Assembly: GCA_039924425.1 (NCBI GenBank)
Contig: JBDTAX010000045.1
Location: forward strand, 5,064 to 69,063
Source of the DNA: Pseudonocardiaceae bacterium
Lineage (GTDB): Bacteria > Actinomycetota > Actinomycetes > Mycobacteriales > Pseudonocardiaceae
Direction: 5' to 3'
Length of the DNA: 64,000 nucleotides
Positions 32,100 through 38,152 of this stretch are shown piece by piece. Numbering within the stretch: position 1 is the stretch's first letter; each line of letters opens with the position of its first letter. Under the pieces are notes generated by a model, which ran no database searches, was not told the DNA's origin, and saw only the letters and a list, made by a program, of their open reading frames with translations. Made by a program: the position numbers and the translations under genes.

Positions 32100-32381
32100 C
32101 TAGGGCAAGCGCTCGATTTCGATCGAGGGTGAGCAGCGGGAGCGCTCCGACTGCGCCCGCGCCGTGTCAAAGACGTCGATGACAGTGCACGGCAGGCCCA
32201 GAAGAACGTCCAGGCCGAGTTCGTGGCCACCGGGGACCAGCGCGCAAGCACGAGCGACCGCTATGGCGGGGACCGCGAGCACGATGTTCTCTTCGATCGC
32301 GGTCATCACCAAGGCTTCGGCATACACTGATCGTCCGGTCGAAAAGCCGACGACCGCAGTCACGTCCAAGAACTCGCCCAC
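32100..32381 (-). CDS. PIN-like (VapC-like) toxin candidate, apparently C-terminally truncated
   Basis: 93 aa. FLDVTAVVGFSTG...AVPAIAVARA...VIDVFD resembles the N-terminal two thirds of VapC-type PIN domains. The usual C-terminal acidic motif is not seen. The start lies 4 nt after the upstream small ORF. Confidence 0.4.
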   Translation of the reverse strand: MGEFLDVTAVVGFSTGRSVYAEALVMTAIEENIVLAVPAIAVARACALVPGGHELGLDVLLGLPCTVIDVFDTARAQSERSRCSPSIEIERLP

Positions 32382-32384
32382 CGA

Positions 32385-32627
32385 TCATGAAACGGCGCAG
32401 CGCGGCGGGAGGCCTGCCCGCTGCCGGACCAGTGCTAGGACGTCCTTAGGCGGCGGTCCACCGAAAAGTCTTGTGACCCGTGCAAGTGCACGGTCCTTGG
32501 CCAGACGAAGCCGCAGAGCCTCCGCAACGTGGTCAGCCACGCTGTCCACCGCGCCGCTGCGGGCGGCATCGCGCGCTTCGCCGAGGAACTCTGCCGGCAG
32601 GTTCACCGACTCCAGCTCGCTGCTCAT
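32385..32627 (-). CDS. Antitoxin candidate (RHH-like)
   Basis: 80 aa. N-terminus VNLPAEFLGEARDAA resembles ribbon-helix-helix antitoxins. It is tightly coupled to the PIN-like ORF. Confidence 0.4.
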   Translation of the reverse strand: MSSELESVNLPAEFLGEARDAARSGAVDSVADHVAEALRLRLAKDRALARVTRLFGGPPPKDVLALVRQRAGLPPRCAVS

Positions 32628-32832
32628 GGATGAAGGGTAGCGGAGCTGTCACGGTCACCCAATTGACGGCGGCAAACTGGTGTTGGCCGTCGTCAATTGG
32701 GAGCGTGCTGGGTAGGCTCTGGCCGCGCTCCCCGCGCTGACCCAACCTCGGGTACGGCGTCCACCCGCTCAAGCTCCCCCTATGTCGGTCTGCGCTTCGC
32801 TCGGGAGAAATACACGTCGCCCCGGCACGCGA

Positions 32833-35558
32833 TCAATCACTATCGGTGGCCATGTTCGGCAGCGCAGAATCGCGCATTGCAATCTGTTCAATGAGCATCC
32901 GTTGGTTGCTTAGCTCTTGCGCGTTGATTGGTGAGAGCTCGTACGCCTCCAGCGCTGCCATCTCATCGCGGGCAGCATCGACTTCACCACACCAAGCCAA
33001 CACGACGGCGTACTGCGCCCGAACCGGTACCAATAGATCGGACAGCTCGAATCTCTTCACAATTGGCAGAAGATCGAATTCGGCGAGGTGTCGAGCTTTT
33101 TTCAGATCATGAAGATCGAGCAGCTCGCCGATCACTTCTTGGCCGGTGAGGACAACCGATCGCCATGCCGAAGCGGCGTTGTAGAATTTTAAGGCATGGA
33201 GGAGTGCGACTAGAGCGGGCTGCCCTATCTGCTGGTGGGCCATCGCCAGGAGTTTCAGACTGTCGGCGACATGGCGAAGGTCGTCATGTCGGTCGGGTGT
33301 GGCAGGCCCCGCAGCCCTAATACCAAAGGCATCAGTGGCGGCAATTTCAAGGATGTCGAGGCCAAGGTGATCGTAGTAGTCCCTGACGAGATGAAGGACC
33401 TCCGACACTACATCTTCATAGGCGCCGAGACGGAACAGTGAAGAGGCTTTATTGTACCGCAGAATCCGGTTCACGCTTGGATTGTCGTGGGTGTATTCAG
33501 CGCCAGTGGTGTAGGCTGCGTCGACCCCCGCGCGGTCACCGGACAGCGCTGCGGCAAGCATCTGCTTCATGCACAGTTCGATCCCTGCTCTAGCGCCGAG
33601 ATCGCCCACCTCCGCCAAGCTGGCCATTCGCTCTACCAGGTACGCAATACGGTCATAGGACCCTCTGGTGTACTCCCAATAGGCCAGCGCACCGAGCACC
33701 CAGAACTGATCCTGAACGCTAAACTCCGGCGACTCGATCACCTCTTCGAGAGTGGCCTTAAGTTCCTGCGGGTCACCGACCTGGTGGAGCTCCTCGTATG
33801 TGGCGAAGTCAAGCAGGGTGTCAATGCGGCCGGTCTCGGGCAGCAACCGAAGCCAGAGACCGAACCGTGCGACAGTCCATCGAGCCAGAAGAGAACGCTC
33901 CAACATGACGACGAGTGACTCAAGCGCCGCATTTACCATGACCGAGGGAAGTGTTTCTCGACCACCACAGGCAAGAATTCGATACGCATCGTGGAGTTTG
34001 ATTTGGCCACCCTGGAAGAGTTGCACAATTCCTAGCCTGCTCAGCTCCCGAATTTCTGTCGAGATCAACGTCGGGGACGAACCCGCGGCGCTGACGAGCT
34101 CCAATGCCTCCTCATGCTCAAGCGATACATCCGAAAGATCGAGCAGTGCGGCAGCTATCCGTGCTCCCGGCGACAGTTGTTCGAAGGTCTCGGTTAGGAT
34201 CATTTCCTGCGCGGTGGGCACAAGATTGAGCCGCTGCCGCACGGCGCCCAGGAAGCGGTTGACGTCGCCACCATAGGCGTCGACGACGAGCTGCGCAGCA
34301 TTCTTGACATAGAGCGGCACACCAGCAGTGATTCCGATAATGCGCTTCCCTGTGGGGCGTCGACTGGACAACCGGCCGAGGCGAACGCAGCAACGACCGC
34401 GTCCAGAGACCAACCGCTGAGTGTTTCCGCCCTGATGCCGAGGCGTCCTTCAACCTCCGCCTGACCGGTCCAGTGCTGACCGATCATAACAAAACGGATG
34501 TCAGTGGTAGCCTCGACCAACCGCCGCAACGTCCCGGCCGACATACCGTGGACGTTATCGAGCACGACGATGACATCCACCCCCTCGCCCCTGAGCCGCT
34601 GAGAGATCGCGGCGAGCAACTCCAATCCGCTTGCCGATGGCAACGCCGCACCGCTCGCTCCAGCGGTAAGTTCGCTAAGAAATCGAGCAGTCACCTCGCG
34701 GGCCAAGGAGGAAGCCAACGCGGAGGCCGGGAGTTCTCCGACGTCGAAATACATGACAGGTGACGGGTGTAGAAGTGCCATTCGCGATGCCCAGGCAGTC
34801 TTACCAGCTCCCGAGACGCCGACGATCAGCCGGGCCCGGCCCGGGGCATCCAGATCCGGTTCGTCCGCGTGCGGGCGGTAGTTGGTTGGTGCTTCCGGGA
34901 ACTCCTGGAGCTGGACCACGAGCTGTTCAAAGAACTCGGTCACCTGTTTGCTGGTCACCGCGTGCCCCATGTGGCCTGCGGCGAGATACTGAACATGCCC
35001 GGAGAGCTTGAATACCAACGTCTCTGGAGCCAGACTCCCAAATGGTACAAGCGTCGCCTGAGCTATGCACGCTTGCAGCGCAGCTACGAGGTCCGGCGAC
35101 GCAGCCGGAAGCTGCAGATTTACTTCAGGGTCGGGATAATCGGGCCACTGCAGCACCATATCCCCAGGCCGCTCTTCCCCAACCAGCCAAGCACGCAATG
35201 CGGGACCAGGCTCGACATTGCTGACCACGGCAAACCACGCCGCGCCCGATCGCCGCCCCTGGGCGTGCTCGTCGCGCAAGACCGCGAATCGTTGTAGCGC
35301 TGCATCCACATCGCTTGGTCGCAAGGGATGATTGCGCGTCTTCACCTGAATGTAGATGTGCGTGTCAGCCCGCACGAGTTCGATATCCTCATCATGCTCA
35401 ATGATCACAAGATCGGTGAAGGTTGCACCCATACTCAGCAGACACGCCACCCCGTAGAGGTGTTGATATCCGTATCCACCATGCATGGCTTCAATCCGCA
35501 CGAGCTGCTGCGGATCTAGGACTGGGTCGAACAGAGCACCGTCTGTCGTTGGCCGCAT
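32833..35558 (-). pseudogene. Avs-like antiviral STAND protein (Cap4/DUF4297-type nuclease, P-loop NTPase, TPR-like sensor), split by a 1-nt frameshift near 34345-34352
   Basis: ORF 34200..35558 has a nuclease motif (HGGYGYQHLYGVACLL...VIIEHDEDIELV...IYIQVKTRN), Walker A GVSGAGKTAW and Walker B VIVVLDNVH. ORF 32833..34413, in another frame, continues with IIGITAGVPLYV (a GxP-like NB-ARC motif) and about 480 aa of helical repeats. G+C is lower than the flanks. Confidence 0.7.
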
Positions 35559-35705
35559 GACTACCAGTGTAAACTGATTCGCCCGGCCTTGGTACGTCGT
35601 TGGTATCGGATGAGGATGGGCGCCATGACTAGGTGGCCGTGAGCAGCCTGTCCTATCAACGATCCTTGATCGTTAGTTCCGTGCGAACCAGACCAGCGGT
35701 GGGGC

Positions 35706-36377
35706 TTAGCGCTCTTTGAGTGACGTCGCGTACTTGTCGACGTACTCCTGGCCGGAAAGCTCCATCAAGACGTACATGATCTCGTCAACCATGGCCCGCT
35801 CGACAAAGCGGTCACCGTCCAGACCCGCGTAGCGCGAGAAGTCCAACGGGGCGCCGAATCGTATTTCCACCGGATGTGGCCGCCACATTCTGGTCCCCAT
35901 GGGGCTGACTTTGTCGGTGCCCACCATCACGACCGGGATCACTGGGACACCGGCTTCCAGCGCCATCCTGGCGACGCCGGTCTTGCCCTTGTACAACCGG
36001 CCATCCGGAGACCGCGTGCCTTCCGGATAGATGCCCAGCAACTTGCCCTGTGCCAGCAACCGTGTCCCGGTGTCCAGAGCGGCCTGCGCGGCCGATGCGC
36101 TGGAGCGGTCGATGGGGACCTGGCCGGCGGCGCTGAAGAACTGCCTGGTGAGCCATCCGCGCAGGCCAGGAGCGGTGAAGTACTCCCGCTTGGCCAGGAA
36201 CGTGACCCTGCGACGAACCATCAGCGGCAGGAAGAACGAGTCGGCGACCGCGAGGTGGTTGCTGGCCAGAATGGCGCCACCGCGCCCCGGGACATGCTCA
36301 GCGCCTCGGACCCGCGGGTGGCATGCCAGCCGCATCAGCGGGCCGAGCAGCAGGTGTTTGAGCAGCCAGTAGAACAC
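35706..36377 (-). CDS. 1-acyl-sn-glycerol-3-phosphate acyltransferase family protein
   Basis: HX4D motif (ASNHLAVADSFF), FLAKRE, and the IYPEGTRS block. Confidence 0.85.
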   Translation of the reverse strand: MFYWLLKHLLLGPLMRLACHPRVRGAEHVPGRGGAILASNHLAVADSFFLPLMVRRRVTFLAKREYFTAPGLRGWLTRQFFSAAGQVPIDRSSASAAQAALDTGTRLLAQGKLLGIYPEGTRSPDGRLYKGKTGVARMALEAGVPVIPVVMVGTDKVSPMGTRMWRPHPVEIRFGAPLDFSRYAGLDGDRFVERAMVDEIMYVLMELSGQEYVDKYATSLKER

Positions 36378-36911: not shown

Positions 36912-36941
36912 GGCGCGCAGGCTACTCGCGACGACGGGACT

Positions 36942-37020
36942 GTGAGTGGCGATACGAATGATCACTTGTATCGCCACTCACACGCCGGGCGAAGCAGCTC
37001 GCCGAGCTGCTTCGCCCGGC
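36942..37020. repeat. Two adjacent perfect hairpins at the GT4/SRPBCC gene junction
   Basis: Hairpin 1: GTGAGTGGCGATA (36942-36954) and TATCGCCACTCAC (36969-36981). Hairpin 2: GCCGGGCGAAGCAGCTC (36984-37000) and GAGCTGCTTCGCCCGGC (37004-37020). The GT4 ORF reads through both and stops inside the loop of hairpin 1. Confidence 0.8.
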
Positions 37021-38152
37021 AAGCCCAGTCCCAGTCCCGTAGCATCCAGCGCCGTCCGCGCTGGCCCATCGCGGCGGCACGCTCGGGATCGGCCAGCAGT
37101 GCGGCAACGGCCCCCGCCACCGCCGCCACGTCACGACCGTCCACCAGCTCGCCGGTGTCGCCCGCGCGCACCGTCTCCCGCGCCCCGCCAGCGTCACCCA
37201 CCACGACCGGCAAGCCGGTCGCCGAAGCCTCAAGGAACACCAGACCGAGCCCTTCGACGTCCAGCCCGTGCCCACGGGTCCGGCAGGGCATCGCGAAGAC
37301 GTCACCAGCGGCGTAGTAGGCGGGCAACTCGGACCACGGCACCGTTCCGGTGCACACCATGGCATCGGATACCCCACACGAGCGCGCCAGCCGACGCAAC
37401 GCCACTGCCCCGGGCCCGTCTCCGACGAGCAGCAGTCTGGCCCCCGGAACTTGACGCGCAATCGCGGGCAACGCCCGCACCAGTGTGTCCTGCCCCTTGC
37501 GAGCCACCAACCGGGACACACACAGCACCACCGGGGCATCCCCCAGCCGGTGGCGGCGGCGGATCTCCGCGCGCGCGCTGGGATCTGGGCGCAAAGCCGC
37601 GCAGTCCACACCCGGTGGAAGCAGTTCCAGAGCAGCGCGGGGACCGAATGCCGAGGAGATCCGGCGGCGGGTGTACTGGCTCACCGCGGTGACCACGTCG
37701 GCATCCGCGCCGATCCGGCGCAGCGCCATGCGCCCTGGGGGCAGCATGGACCAACCCACCTCGTGTCCATGACTGCTGGCCACCACGCGTCGCACCCCGG
37801 CGCGGCGCAATGCCGGACCGAGCAGGGCCAGCGGGGCGGCCGCGCCGAACCACGCGGTGTCACAACGCAGTTCCCGCAGGAAACCGACAGCCCGGCGCAG
37901 TACGGACGGCGTGGGAAGCATGAGGGATCCGGGATGCCGGAGCACCGGGAAGGGCAACCTGGCATCGAAGGCCGCCGCTCCCGGCCAGTCCGGTGCGTAG
38001 ACGGCGATGTCACCCTCGGGCAGCGCCAGAGCCAGTTGGTGCAGGTAAGCCTGGATGCCACCGGGTCGGGGCGGGAAGTCGTTGCTGACCAGCAGGATCC
38101 GTGGCACCCGTGGTTTCAGCCGATCCGACTCAGTGCGGTGACTTGGCTCCAC
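36962..38152 (-). CDS. GT4-family glycosyltransferase (PimB-like mannosyltransferase by context)
   Basis: N-terminus RILLVSNDFPPRPGGIQAYLHQL. C-terminal GT1/GT4 EX7E region (GLGLVFLEASATGLPVVVGDAGGARETV). An alternative GTG start at 38107 avoids overlap with the upstream NlpC/P60 gene. Confidence 0.85.
   Translation of the reverse strand: MEPSHRTESDRLKPRVPRILLVSNDFPPRPGGIQAYLHQLALALPEGDIAVYAPDWPGAAAFDARLPFPVLRHPGSLMLPTPSVLRRAVGFLRELRCDTAWFGAAAPLALLGPALRRAGVRRVVASSHGHEVGWSMLPPGRMALRRIGADADVVTAVSQYTRRRISSAFGPRAALELLPPGVDCAALRPDPSARAEIRRRHRLGDAPVVLCVSRLVARKGQDTLVRALPAIARQVPGARLLLVGDGPGAVALRRLARSCGVSDAMVCTGTVPWSELPAYYAAGDVFAMPCRTRGHGLDVEGLGLVFLEASATGLPVVVGDAGGARETVRAGDTGELVDGRDVAAVAGAVAALLADPERAAAMGQRGRRWMLRDWDWACRAKQLGELLRPACEWRYK

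What the first reader, a model, noticed from the sequence alone, without database searches (positions are those of the whole stretch)
32833..35558. Lower-GC Avs-like defence gene: Cap4-type nuclease + STAND NTPase + TPR-like sensor, interrupted by one frameshift
The N-terminus carries the DUF4297/Cap4 endonuclease signature (GGYGYQ...IIEHDEDIELV...IYIQVKTRN). It is followed by Walker A (GVSGAGKT) and Walker B (VIVVLDNVH). After a 1-nt frame change near 34345-34352, the sequence continues with a GxP-like NB-ARC motif (ITAGVPLYV) and about 480 aa of helical repeats.

This tripartite effector-NTPase-sensor layout is that of antiviral STAND (Avs) proteins, which recognise phage proteins and then degrade DNA. 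The gene sits in a visibly lower-GC segment next to a TA-like pair, so it looks horizontally acquired. As written it is inactivated within the NTPase domain, unless the frameshift is a sequencing artefact. The sensor domain may define a distinct specificity.
Basis: partly seen in the sequence, partly recalled or inferred. Interest (0 to 1): 0.65.

Follow-up and report, generated by a model that had tools for sequence, protein, structure and literature searches.

The report
Broken Avs-like phage-defence gene
This is a dead copy, killed by the loss of one DNA base, of a horizontally acquired bacterial immune gene (DNA-cutting domain + ATP switch + helical sensor) from a widespread but untested family resembling antiviral STAND (Avs) proteins; the kind is known and this copy is a relic.

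Summary
Two overlapping minus-strand ORFs (35558-34200 and 34413-32833) are one 908-codon gene broken by loss of a single base at 34350-34357.

More than 500 intact single-chain homologues of 880-960 aa cover 97-99 % of the read-through. The two-gene reading is therefore refuted.

The same junction, without any gap, appears in contigs of five metagenome runs from three studies. This includes SNP-distinct variants, so an artefact of this one assembly is excluded.

The gene is evolving like a pseudogene. SNP density is 4.2 times that of the flanks, N:S is 8:2 against 4:8, and a minority allele carries a further 283-bp deletion.

The read-through folds with confidence (pLDDT 90.9) into four parts: a Cap4/DUF4297-type PD-(D/E)xK nuclease, a STAND NTPase (Walker A/B, GxP, MHD-like His), a winged helix, and about 360 aa of TPR-like repeats. 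The best whole-length PDB match is SeAvs3.

No Avs/AVAST model in PADLOC matches, so it is Avs-like in architecture but not a shown member of Avs1-5.

The family is a single-gene module found in defence islands, on plasmids and beside transposases. In the window it sits in a variable hotspot after plsC of a soil Pseudonocardiaceae genome, with low GC3.

Verdict: a new, inactivated member of a known kind, of modest interest.

The parts
32833..35558 (-). Whole pseudogene: 908-codon Cap4-nuclease / STAND NTPase / TPR-like sensor gene with one frameshift
   Evidence: ORFs. Read-through. Full-length intact homologues. Model with pLDDT 90.9.
34914..35513 (-). Cap4/DUF4297-type PD-(D/E)xK nuclease domain (aa 16-215). 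The catalytic motif is IIEHDEDIELV..YIQVKTR, with E57, D58, Q71 and K73.
   Evidence: Pfam Cap4_nuclease E = 3.5e-5, below the cut-off in the window but above it in P0009. PADLOC LmuA N-terminus E = 4e-7. Catalytic residues invariant in A2. Foldseek matches to HamA, AbCap4, LmuA and HerA-DUF4297 at TM 0.47-0.57.
34419..34835 (-). P-loop nucleotide-binding domain (aa 242-380). Walker A GVSGAGKT lies at 34797-34820 and Walker B VIVVLDNVH at 34548-34574.
   Evidence: Pfam AAA_22 E = 5.5e-9, 36.9 bits against a cut-off of 27. G250, G252, K253, D334 and N335 are invariant. Fold.
34350..34357 (-). Frameshift site: one base lost, leaving an incomplete codon CA at 34352-34351, between CCA (Pro) and GGG (Gly)
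   Evidence: Protein alignment. Codon alignment to L085, L086 and L001. The same sequence without gaps appears in contigs of runs X1-X5.
34200..34202 (-). Premature stop of the upstream frame. The product would be 403 native residues plus 49 out-of-frame residues.
34135..34406 (-). STAND helical subdomain HD1 (aa 385-475), split by the frameshift. The GxP motif ITAGVPLYV lies at 34306-34332.
   Evidence: G413 and P415 are invariant. Helices 385-475 in the model.
33955..34116 (-). Winged-helix subdomain (aa 482-535) with an MHD-like KLHD motif (H523, D524)
   Evidence: H523 is invariant. Strands 512-515 and 519-522 in the model. Weak HTH_Crp_2 and CRP-family matches.
32878..33945 (-). All-helical TPR-like sensor (aa 539-894). 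This copy has no SEC-C tail.
   Evidence: Model. TPR proteins (LGN, TTC7B) among the Foldseek matches. Weak TPR_MalT hit in P0054. Family mean pairwise identity is 0.37.
33907..34189 (.). 283-bp segment deleted in a minority allele of population X4 (depth 3.8 against 11)
32730..35700 (.). Lineage-specific insert (GC 59.6 %) between the 3' end of plsC and the small gene pair. It is absent from close relatives.
   Evidence: blastn against L081-L084. Gene maps. Composition.
32100..32627 (-). Adjacent small gene pair: an 80-aa putative antitoxin (32385-32627) and a PIN/VapC-like gene (32100-32381) carrying an in-frame deletion of about 39 aa
   Evidence: 81 % DNA identity to L083/L084. Alignment A3. 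No curated family hit.

Best explanation
The region is a pseudogene of a single-gene, NLR-like (Avs-type) anti-phage module.

**How intact family members probably work.** These steps are inferred from the solved Avs3, Avs4 and Avs7 mechanisms.
1. An ADP-bound, auto-inhibited monomer uses its C-terminal TPR-like solenoid to bind a phage-derived ligand.
2. Binding releases the STAND NTPase (NBD-HD1-WHD), which takes up ATP and oligomerises.
3. Oligomerisation brings the N-terminal Cap4-type PD-(D/E)xK nuclease domains together.
4. The assembled nucleases cut double-stranded DNA and abort the infection.

**What happened in this genome (shown).**
- The gene was acquired horizontally into a variable hotspot just downstream of plsC in a soil Pseudonocardiaceae lineage.
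- It then lost one base at 34350-34357, inside the helical subdomain of the NTPase.
- Translation now ends after 403 native residues plus 49 out-of-frame residues. The GxP motif, the winged helix and the whole sensor are no longer joined to the nuclease and P-loop.

**Consequence.**
- Inferred: the protein can neither sense nor oligomerise.
- Shown: the locus is decaying neutrally.
For: **One gene, not two.** 579 hits are single chains of 880-960 aa covering 97-99 % of the read-through. There are 448 clusters (at 50 % identity) with E <= 1e-30. The junction is colinear with no residue lost.

**A real mutation.** Contigs of X1, X2, X3, X4 and X5, from three studies, cross the site with 0 gaps. 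X4 and X6 are SNP-distinct variants.

**Decay.**
- X4 carries 10 SNPs in 2726 bp of the gene against 15 in 17265 bp of the flanks (Poisson P = 1.8e-4).
- N:S is 8:2 in the gene against 4:8 in the flanks (Fisher one-sided p = 0.038).
- A minority allele has a 283-bp deletion.
- The window copy deviates at 9 of 137 family-conserved columns, against a median of 4.

**Domains.**
- Pfam AAA_22 scores above its cut-off.
- The Cap4 motif residues E57, D58, Q71 and K73 are invariant.
- So are Walker A, Walker B, the GxP motif and H523.

**Fold.**
- The AF2 model has pLDDT 90.9.
- The whole-chain Foldseek search ranks SeAvs3 (8dgc) first at E = 3.5e-13. A TPR-STAND (6mfv), NRC4, CED-4 and plant resistosomes follow.
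- The N-terminal domain matches HamA, AbCap4, LmuA and HerA-DUF4297.

**Defence context.**
- No partner gene is conserved across loci; the best candidate is present in 10 of 80.
- The nearest neighbours in 28 genus-dereplicated loci include GajA (E = 2e-223) with GajB, AriA, type IIG R-M, Old, PtuA and NsnB.
- The family is found on 25 plasmids, 10 of them conjugative.
- Integrase and transposase genes lie beside P0001 and P0004.

**Foreign origin.**
- Relatives with 96 % identical PlsC have no gene at this spot. Relatives at 91 % carry different cargo there.
- GC3 is 64-66 % against 79-93 % in flanking core genes.

**Mechanistic analogy.** Avs3 and Avs7 as described in PMC13581612.
Against: - No member of this family has been tested experimentally, as far as the held literature shows.
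- No AVAST/Avs HMM in PADLOC matches, even for intact homologues.
- The PDB profile search found no significant sequence match.
- The mechanism is an analogy drawn from a fold match with low global TM (0.25).
- The read evidence consists of assembled contigs, which drop rare variants. A minority intact allele cannot be excluded (caveat).
- X1 or X2 may be the sample the window itself came from.
- The N:S contrast rests on 22 SNPs. Eight of the gene's SNPs cluster within 386 bp and could reflect a recombination tract.
Confidence: 0.87

Rival explanations
1. The frameshift is a sequencing or assembly artefact and the gene is intact and functional.
For: - The lesion is a single base next to short C and G runs.
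- Runs X1 and X2 match 100 % of words and could be the window's own source.
Against: - Five runs from three studies give the same junction with 0 gaps. Among them are contigs carrying other SNPs (X4) and a moss-metagenome contig (X5).
- The runs flanking the lesion are only 3-4 bases long, too short for typical homopolymer errors.
- Raised SNP density and N:S, together with a 283-bp deletion allele, show relaxed constraint.
Confidence: 0.03
2. The frame change is programmed (ribosomal -1 slippage) or a reversible phase-variation switch, so full-length protein is still made in some cells.
For: - A -1 slip of tRNA-Pro on C-CCA would yield DAPTGK, matching P0001's APTGQ.
- Switching a toxic defence gene on and off is a known strategy (general knowledge).
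- Contigs cannot exclude minority alleles.
Against: - There is no X_XXY_YYZ slippery heptamer at the junction.
- None of more than 500 homologues needs a frameshift.
- Runs of 3-4 bases are far shorter than known phase-variable tracts.
- N:S of 8:2 and a further frame-destroying 283-bp deletion indicate no purifying selection on the downstream part.
Confidence: 0.04
3. The two ORFs are a functional split system: a nuclease-NBD protein plus a separate HD1-WHD-sensor protein that reassemble.
For: - Both ORFs are long and otherwise undisrupted.
- All strictly invariant family residues are retained.
Against: - No split homologue is conserved anywhere. Short hits are contig fragments.
- The break falls inside the HD1 subdomain, not at a domain boundary.
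- ORF2 begins at a TTG inside out-of-frame sequence with no recognisable signals.
- Relaxed-selection signals are present.
Confidence: 0.03
4. The family is not an anti-phage sensor but a STAND-type regulator or housekeeping nuclease, for example MalT/AfsR-like signalling or DNA repair.
For: - Defence and non-defence STAND clades are interspersed (PMC13581612).
- The second-best fold match is a non-immune TPR-STAND, 6mfv.
- No defence HMM covers the NTPase or the sensor.
- The role of the SEC-C tail is unknown.
Against: - The effector fold is the one shared by Cap4, LmuA, HamA and the Avs3/7 nucleases.
- Distribution is patchy across phyla, on plasmids and next to integrases and transposases.
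- The nearest neighbours are rich in Gabija, PARIS, R-M, Septu and Old genes.
- The gene is readily lost or broken (window, P0001), as is typical of accessory defence genes.
Confidence: 0.1

Closest known systems
Avs3 (SeAvs3, PDB 8dgc) and Avs7 (SeAvs7): Cap4-nuclease antiviral STAND proteins
   Same: - The order of parts is the same: an N-terminal Cap4-type PD-(D/E)xK nuclease, a STAND NTPase with Walker A/B and a WHD histidine, then a C-terminal TPR-like sensor.
- Both are single-gene systems.
- SeAvs3 is the best whole-chain fold match, at E = 3.5e-13.
- The domain logic is as described in PMC13581612.
   Different: - It is about half the size: 908 aa against 2028 for SeAvs3.
- The sensor is about 360 aa, below the 400-aa cut-off used for sensor clustering in PMC13581612.
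- No AVAST HMM matches and there is no significant sequence match to any PDB chain.
- Most non-actinobacterial members end in a SEC-C zinc motif.
- The trigger is unknown.
- The window copy is frameshifted.
Cap4 / LmuA / HamA / HerA-DUF4297 nuclease domains (Pfam PF14130)
   Same: - The N-terminal fold is shared, at TM 0.47-0.57.
- The GxxYQ ... E-DED-E ... QVK motif aligns with LmuA.
   Different: Those nucleases are controlled by SAVED/cyclic oligonucleotides, SMC-like LmuB, the HamB helicase or HerA. Here the nuclease is fused to a STAND switch.
TPR-containing STAND PH0952 (PDB 6mfv) and MalT-type STANDs
   Same: - NBD-HD1-WHD followed directly by a compact TPR solenoid. It is the second-best fold match, at E = 5.3e-13.
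- P0054 gives a weak TPR_MalT hit.
   Different: These proteins have no nuclease effector, and they act as regulators rather than in a defence-island context.
Eukaryotic NB-ARC proteins (CED-4, plant NRC4/ZAR1/RPP1 resistosomes)
   Same: NB-ARC-type core with GxP and MHD-like motifs, and a fold match at E = 1e-7 to 1e-5.
   Different: The effector and sensor domains differ. The similarity is limited to the NTPase module.

Membership tests
STAND NTPase superfamily | P-loop NBD with Walker A (GxxxxGK[ST]) and Walker B | tested here: met
   GVSGAGKT and VVLDN are present. G250, G252, K253, D334 and N335 are invariant in 116 sequences. Pfam AAA_22 scores 36.9 bits against a cut-off of 27.
STAND NTPase superfamily | Helical subdomain with a GxP motif, followed by a winged helix with a conserved His (MHD-like) | tested here: met
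   G413-V-P415 and the KLH523D motif are invariant. The model shows helices 385-475 and a winged helix at 482-535.
STAND NTPase superfamily | Fold similarity to solved STAND/NLR structures | tested here: met
   Foldseek matches: SeAvs3 8dgc, 6mfv, NRC4, CED-4 and plant resistosomes, at E = 3.5e-13 to 1e-5.
Cap4/DUF4297 nuclease (PF14130) | Pfam model above the gathering score | tested here: not met
   The window copy scores 23.3-24.5 bits against a cut-off of 26.2, and only aa 27-84 match. Family members do pass: P0009 scores 35.1 bits, and many hits carry a precomputed PF14130 assignment.
Cap4/DUF4297 nuclease (PF14130) | PD-(D/E)xK catalytic residues and fold | tested here: met
   E57, D58, Q71 and K73 are invariant. 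The N-terminal model (pLDDT 88.8) matches HamA, AbCap4, LmuA and HerA-DUF4297.
Cap4/DUF4297 nuclease (PF14130) | dsDNA endonuclease activity | not testable with these tools
   This needs purified protein from an intact homologue.
Avs1-5 (AVAST types I-V) | Match to the family HMMs used by PADLOC | tested here: not met
   No AVAST/Avs model matched at E <= 1 for the split ORFs, the read-through or five intact homologues. That PADLOC 2.0 contains AVAST I-V models is my own knowledge.
Avs (antiviral STAND) in the broad sense, Avs1-24 and the 198 defence-associated clades of PMC13581612 | NTPase domain falls in a defence-associated STAND clade, by effector domain or by defence-gene neighbourhood | tested here: inconclusive
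   Both criteria are met qualitatively: a Cap4 effector and neighbours rich in Gabija, PARIS, R-M and Septu genes. The paper's clade tables are not held, so the family could not be mapped to a named clade.
Avs (antiviral STAND) in the broad sense | Phage protection and activation by a phage protein | not testable with these tools
   No experimental report was found.
Functional gene (any family) | Uninterrupted reading frame | tested here: not met
   One base is lost at 34350-34357. This is reproduced in five runs.

The most novel reading that the evidence does not exclude
The family this relic belongs to may be a distinct Avs-type clade that nobody has tested. It combines a Cap4 nuclease, a STAND NTPase, an unusually compact sensor of about 360 aa and, outside Actinomycetota, a C-terminal SEC-C zinc motif. 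It comprises about 450 clusters at 50 % identity. Its short sensor and SEC-C tail might recognise a trigger different from those assigned to Avs1-24, possibly through a host factor as EF-Tu serves Avs7. The window copy would then be a naturally inactivated example showing how quickly such genes are shed.
Probability: 0.3. Interest if true: 0.5.

Novelty: new member of a known kind. Interest (0 to 1): 0.28.

Why it matters
For this genome the result is an annotation. The locus should be marked as one frameshifted pseudogene of an NLR-like defence nuclease, not as two hypothetical proteins. It is part of a small graveyard of accessory genes, alongside a decayed PIN-like toxin, in a variable hotspot after plsC.

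The family is more useful than this copy. It is a compact (about 100 kDa), single-gene, Cap4-armed STAND protein that the 2023 PADLOC models do not capture. It occurs on conjugative E. coli, Klebsiella and Pseudomonas plasmids, so an intact member could be tested directly in E. coli for phage protection and for its trigger.

If the family proves active, its short sensor would help define the minimal sensor an Avs-type receptor needs.

Tried and rejected
- **First homologue search.** It timed out and was repeated successfully.
- **Sequence searches that gave nothing useful.**
  - A single-sequence search and a profile search of PDB sequences gave nothing significant.
  - NCBIfam gave only a 12-bit DUF4297 hit.
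- **Mapping to named Avs clades.** This was not possible because the supplements of PMC13581612 are not held.
- **Literature.**
  - The lactococcal SEC-C protein Rugutis is unrelated in architecture.
  - Searches for DUF4297, STAND, TPR and SEC-C together, and for accession WP_038989307, found no description of this family.
- **Island borders.**
  - No tRNA.
  - No integrase in the insert.
  - Flanking direct repeats are no better than chance; the best is a 21-nt pair at 90 % identity, 32073/36502, one copy of which lies inside a core gene.
- **Expression signals.** The promoter and terminator scan found nothing above the shuffled expectation.
- **Programmed frameshifting.** Considered and rejected: there is no slippery heptamer, no homologue needs a frameshift, and selection is relaxed.
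- **Conserved partner gene.** Looked for and not found.
- **The genome itself.** The window's genome is not among the GTDB representative genomes; the best match is 60 % identity.
- **Phages.** The phage collection gave one full-length hit, in an unannotated 8.3-kb contig. The family is therefore not typically phage-borne.
Full report
**Observation**

On the minus strand there are two long overlapping ORFs, 35558..34200 (452 aa) and 34413..32833 (526 aa). Joining frame 0 up to ..CPVDAPQ to frame 2 from GKRIIGITAG.. gives a 908-aa read-through.

**One gene or two**

A search of 5.8 billion proteins with the read-through found 579 relatives. The 120 best are almost all single chains of 880-960 aa covering 94-99 % of the query. 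They are 69-54 % identical in Actinomycetota and 37-42 % in Proteobacteria, Bacillota, Chloroflexi and others.

A profile search of 1.84 billion representatives found 448 clusters at E <= 1e-30. The top hits were again full-length.

The alignment is colinear through the junction with no residue missing. At codon level the window reads GCC CCA CA- GGG AAG CGC, where the nearest homologue reads GCC CCA ACC GGG CAG CGC. The two ORFs are therefore one gene that has lost a single base at 34350-34357.

**Artefact or real**

Near-identical sequence is held by soil, rhizosphere and moss metagenome runs from three studies.

- Their assembled contigs cross the junction without any gap in X1, X2, X3, X4 and X5.
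- X4 and X6 carry SNPs of their own, so they are not the same molecule population.
- These are contigs, not reads, and contigs drop rare variants. A minority intact allele cannot be excluded, but an artefact of the window's own assembly can.

**Age and selection**

- Against population X4, the gene has 10 fixed differences in 2726 bp. The surrounding 17.3 kb has 15, a 4.2-fold lower density (Poisson P = 1.8e-4).
- Eight of the gene's ten differences are non-synonymous, against four of twelve coding differences in the flanking core genes (one-sided Fisher p = 0.038).
- X4 also contains a minority allele lacking 283 bp (33907-34189) inside the gene.
- The window copy departs from the family consensus at 9 of 137 columns that are at least 90 % conserved, where the median member departs at 4. 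The departures include P362H, R618Q, D623G and D811G.
- There is no X_XXY_YYZ slippery site.

Together these findings indicate a true pseudogene that has been drifting for some time. They do not fit a programmed frameshift.

**What the gene was**

Sequence evidence:

- Pfam gives AAA_22 above its cut-off.
- Pfam gives Cap4_nuclease just below its cut-off in the window, but above it in relatives.
- PADLOC matches only the N-terminal 55-90 residues, to LmuA. In relatives it also matches the SEC-C tail.
- No AVAST/Avs or other STAND defence model matches.

Whole-chain model:

- An AlphaFold2 model built on 116 sequences is confident (pLDDT 90.9, pTM 0.79).
- It shows an alpha/beta domain (aa 16-215), a P-loop domain (242-380), a helical subdomain (385-475), a winged helix (482-535) and an all-helical solenoid (539-894).
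- The whole-chain Foldseek search ranks SeAvs3 bound to terminase first (8dgc, E = 3.5e-13, 1148 aligned columns). A TPR-STAND (6mfv), NRC4, CED-4, plant resistosomes and ORC/Cdc6 follow.

N-terminal domain:

- A separate model of aa 1-225 (pLDDT 88.8) matches only the defence-type Cap4/DUF4297 nuclease fold.
- The matches are HamA, AbCap4, LmuA, HerA-DUF4297 and MoCap4.

Invariant residues across 116 sequences:

- the nuclease motif (E57, D58, Q71, K73);
- Walker A (G250, G252, K253);
- Walker B (D334, N335);
- P415 of the GxP motif;
- H523 of an MHD-like KLHD motif.

The sensor is colinear and 37 % identical on average across phyla. It is family-specific rather than hypervariable. Most non-actinobacterial members end in a SEC-C zinc motif (CxCGSGxKxKxCHG). 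The window's clade lacks it.

**Family biology**

- In 80 loci from GTDB representative genomes, no neighbouring gene is conserved; the best candidate is present in 10 of 80, all in one Sphingopyxis-type context. The family is therefore a stand-alone module.
- The two nearest genes on each side in 28 genus-dereplicated loci include Gabija (GajA E = 2e-223, with GajB). They also include PARIS AriA, type IIG restriction-modification, Old, Septu PtuA, Menshen NsnB and AbiL.
- This is far above the 1.5 % background quoted in PMC13581612. My count is of HMM hits, not of complete systems.
- Members lie on 25 plasmids, 10 of them conjugative. They include an E. coli IncHI1B plasmid and Pseudomonas megaplasmids.
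- The window's closest relative, P0001, is itself 5'-truncated beside a transposase fragment and an integrase. Another STAND gene lies nearby.

**Local context**

The host is an uncultured soil Pseudonocardiaceae lineage; its PlsC is 99-91 % identical to MAG proteins so named.

- Relatives with 96 % identical PlsC go straight from plsC to the Rv2179c-like, PFK and DAHP-synthase genes.
- Relatives at 91 % carry a different cargo there (an XRE-HTH gene plus unknowns), followed by a small gene pair.
- DNA homology between the window and these relatives stops at 35701, in the last codons of plsC. It resumes only at 32729-32140, which is the small pair.
- The insert 32730-35700 is therefore lineage-specific cargo in a variable hotspot. 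Its GC is 59.6 % and its GC3 is 64-66 %, against 79-93 % in the neighbours.
- The small pair is plausibly toxin-antitoxin-like. The relatives' 124-132-aa second gene looks like a PIN domain to my eye, although no curated model matches. The window's copy has an in-frame deletion of about 39 aa.

**Mechanism**

Shown: the domain composition and order, conservation of the catalytic and nucleotide-binding residues, the defence-island context, and the inactivating lesion.

Inferred by analogy with Avs3, Avs4 and Avs7 (PMC13581612):

1. The sensor binds a phage ligand.
2. The NTPase exchanges nucleotide and oligomerises.
3. The Cap4 domains assemble and cleave dsDNA.
4. The infection is aborted.

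In the window the break lies inside the helical subdomain. The product has the nuclease and P-loop but no GxP motif, winged helix or sensor, and should be inert.

**Comparison and novelty**

The gene works like an Avs and is an NLR-like STAND protein by every structural criterion tested. I do not file it under Avs1-5, because their HMMs do not match. I could not map it to the 198 defence-associated clades or to Avs6-24, because the tables are not held.

The kind is known. The family is annotated only generically, as 'dsDNA nuclease domain-containing' or 'SEC-C metal-binding domain-containing' protein, and appears untested. This copy is dead. Interest is therefore modest for the window, and moderate for the family as an experimental target.

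Noticed in passing
window 32100-32627 (-): The small gene pair next to the pseudogene is shared at 81 % DNA identity with relatives L083/L084. The second gene is 124-132 aa there and looks PIN/VapC-like. The window copy (93 aa) has an in-frame internal deletion of about 39 aa. Both genes carry non-synonymous population SNPs (32371 F>S, 32588 F>L). No curated family model matches either gene.
   Followed up: partly
window 35701-35706 (3' end of plsC, 35706-36377 -): PlsC is 223 aa here but 234-239 aa in all close relatives. DNA homology ends at 35701, so the insertion replaced the last codons of this core gene.
   Followed up: partly
window ~32100 and the whole 64 kb: There is a second synteny break. 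Relatives continue after the hotspot with the Rv2179c-like, PFK, DAHP-synthase, PknL-like and Rv2175c genes. The window continues with a transglutaminase and circularly permuted ATP-grasp cluster and lacks those genes entirely.
   Followed up: partly
window 36936-36942: Relatives carry a 604-aa AMP-binding (FadD-like) gene between the GT4 glycosyltransferase and the SRPBCC gene. The window has none.
   Followed up: no
window 33907-34189 and 37301-37411: Population X4 holds two minority deletion alleles. One removes 283 bp inside the pseudogene (depth 3.8 against 11). The other is an in-frame 111-bp deletion in the GT4 gene region (depth 3.9 against about 17).
   Followed up: partly
window 32658-32701: A strong hairpin (20-nt arms, 90 % complementary, 4-nt loop) lies in the spacer between the pseudogene's stop and the small gene pair. 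It could be a terminator or an operator. It has no T-tract.
   Followed up: no
L085 7442-17364: The closest homologue, P0001, starts 29 bp after an rve transposase fragment and lacks its first ~50 residues, so it too is damaged. A phage-type integrase lies upstream and a 1270-aa nSTAND1-WD40 protein lies 3 kb downstream.
   Followed up: partly
L023 / L024 (Streptomyces sp. NBC_01538 chromosome, 106744-129374 and 10176746-10199376): The same family gene is present at both chromosome ends in mirror orientation, that is, within the terminal inverted repeats of a linear Streptomyces chromosome.
   Followed up: no
L087 (E. coli plasmid pEC2_1-4, NZ_CP016183.1, 171112-173910): An intact family member, WP_038989307.1, is annotated as a SEC-C metal-binding domain-containing protein. 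It sits on a conjugative IncHI1B plasmid among integrases, IS elements, an Xre/MbcA antitoxin and a group II intron. It is a convenient candidate for experiments.
   Followed up: partly
family alignment A1/A2, C-terminus: Most non-actinobacterial members end in a SEC-C zinc motif (CxCGSGxKxKxCHG). The same tail produces spurious PADLOC hits to E2 and PDC-S12 models. Its role in a STAND nuclease is unexplained.
   Followed up: partly
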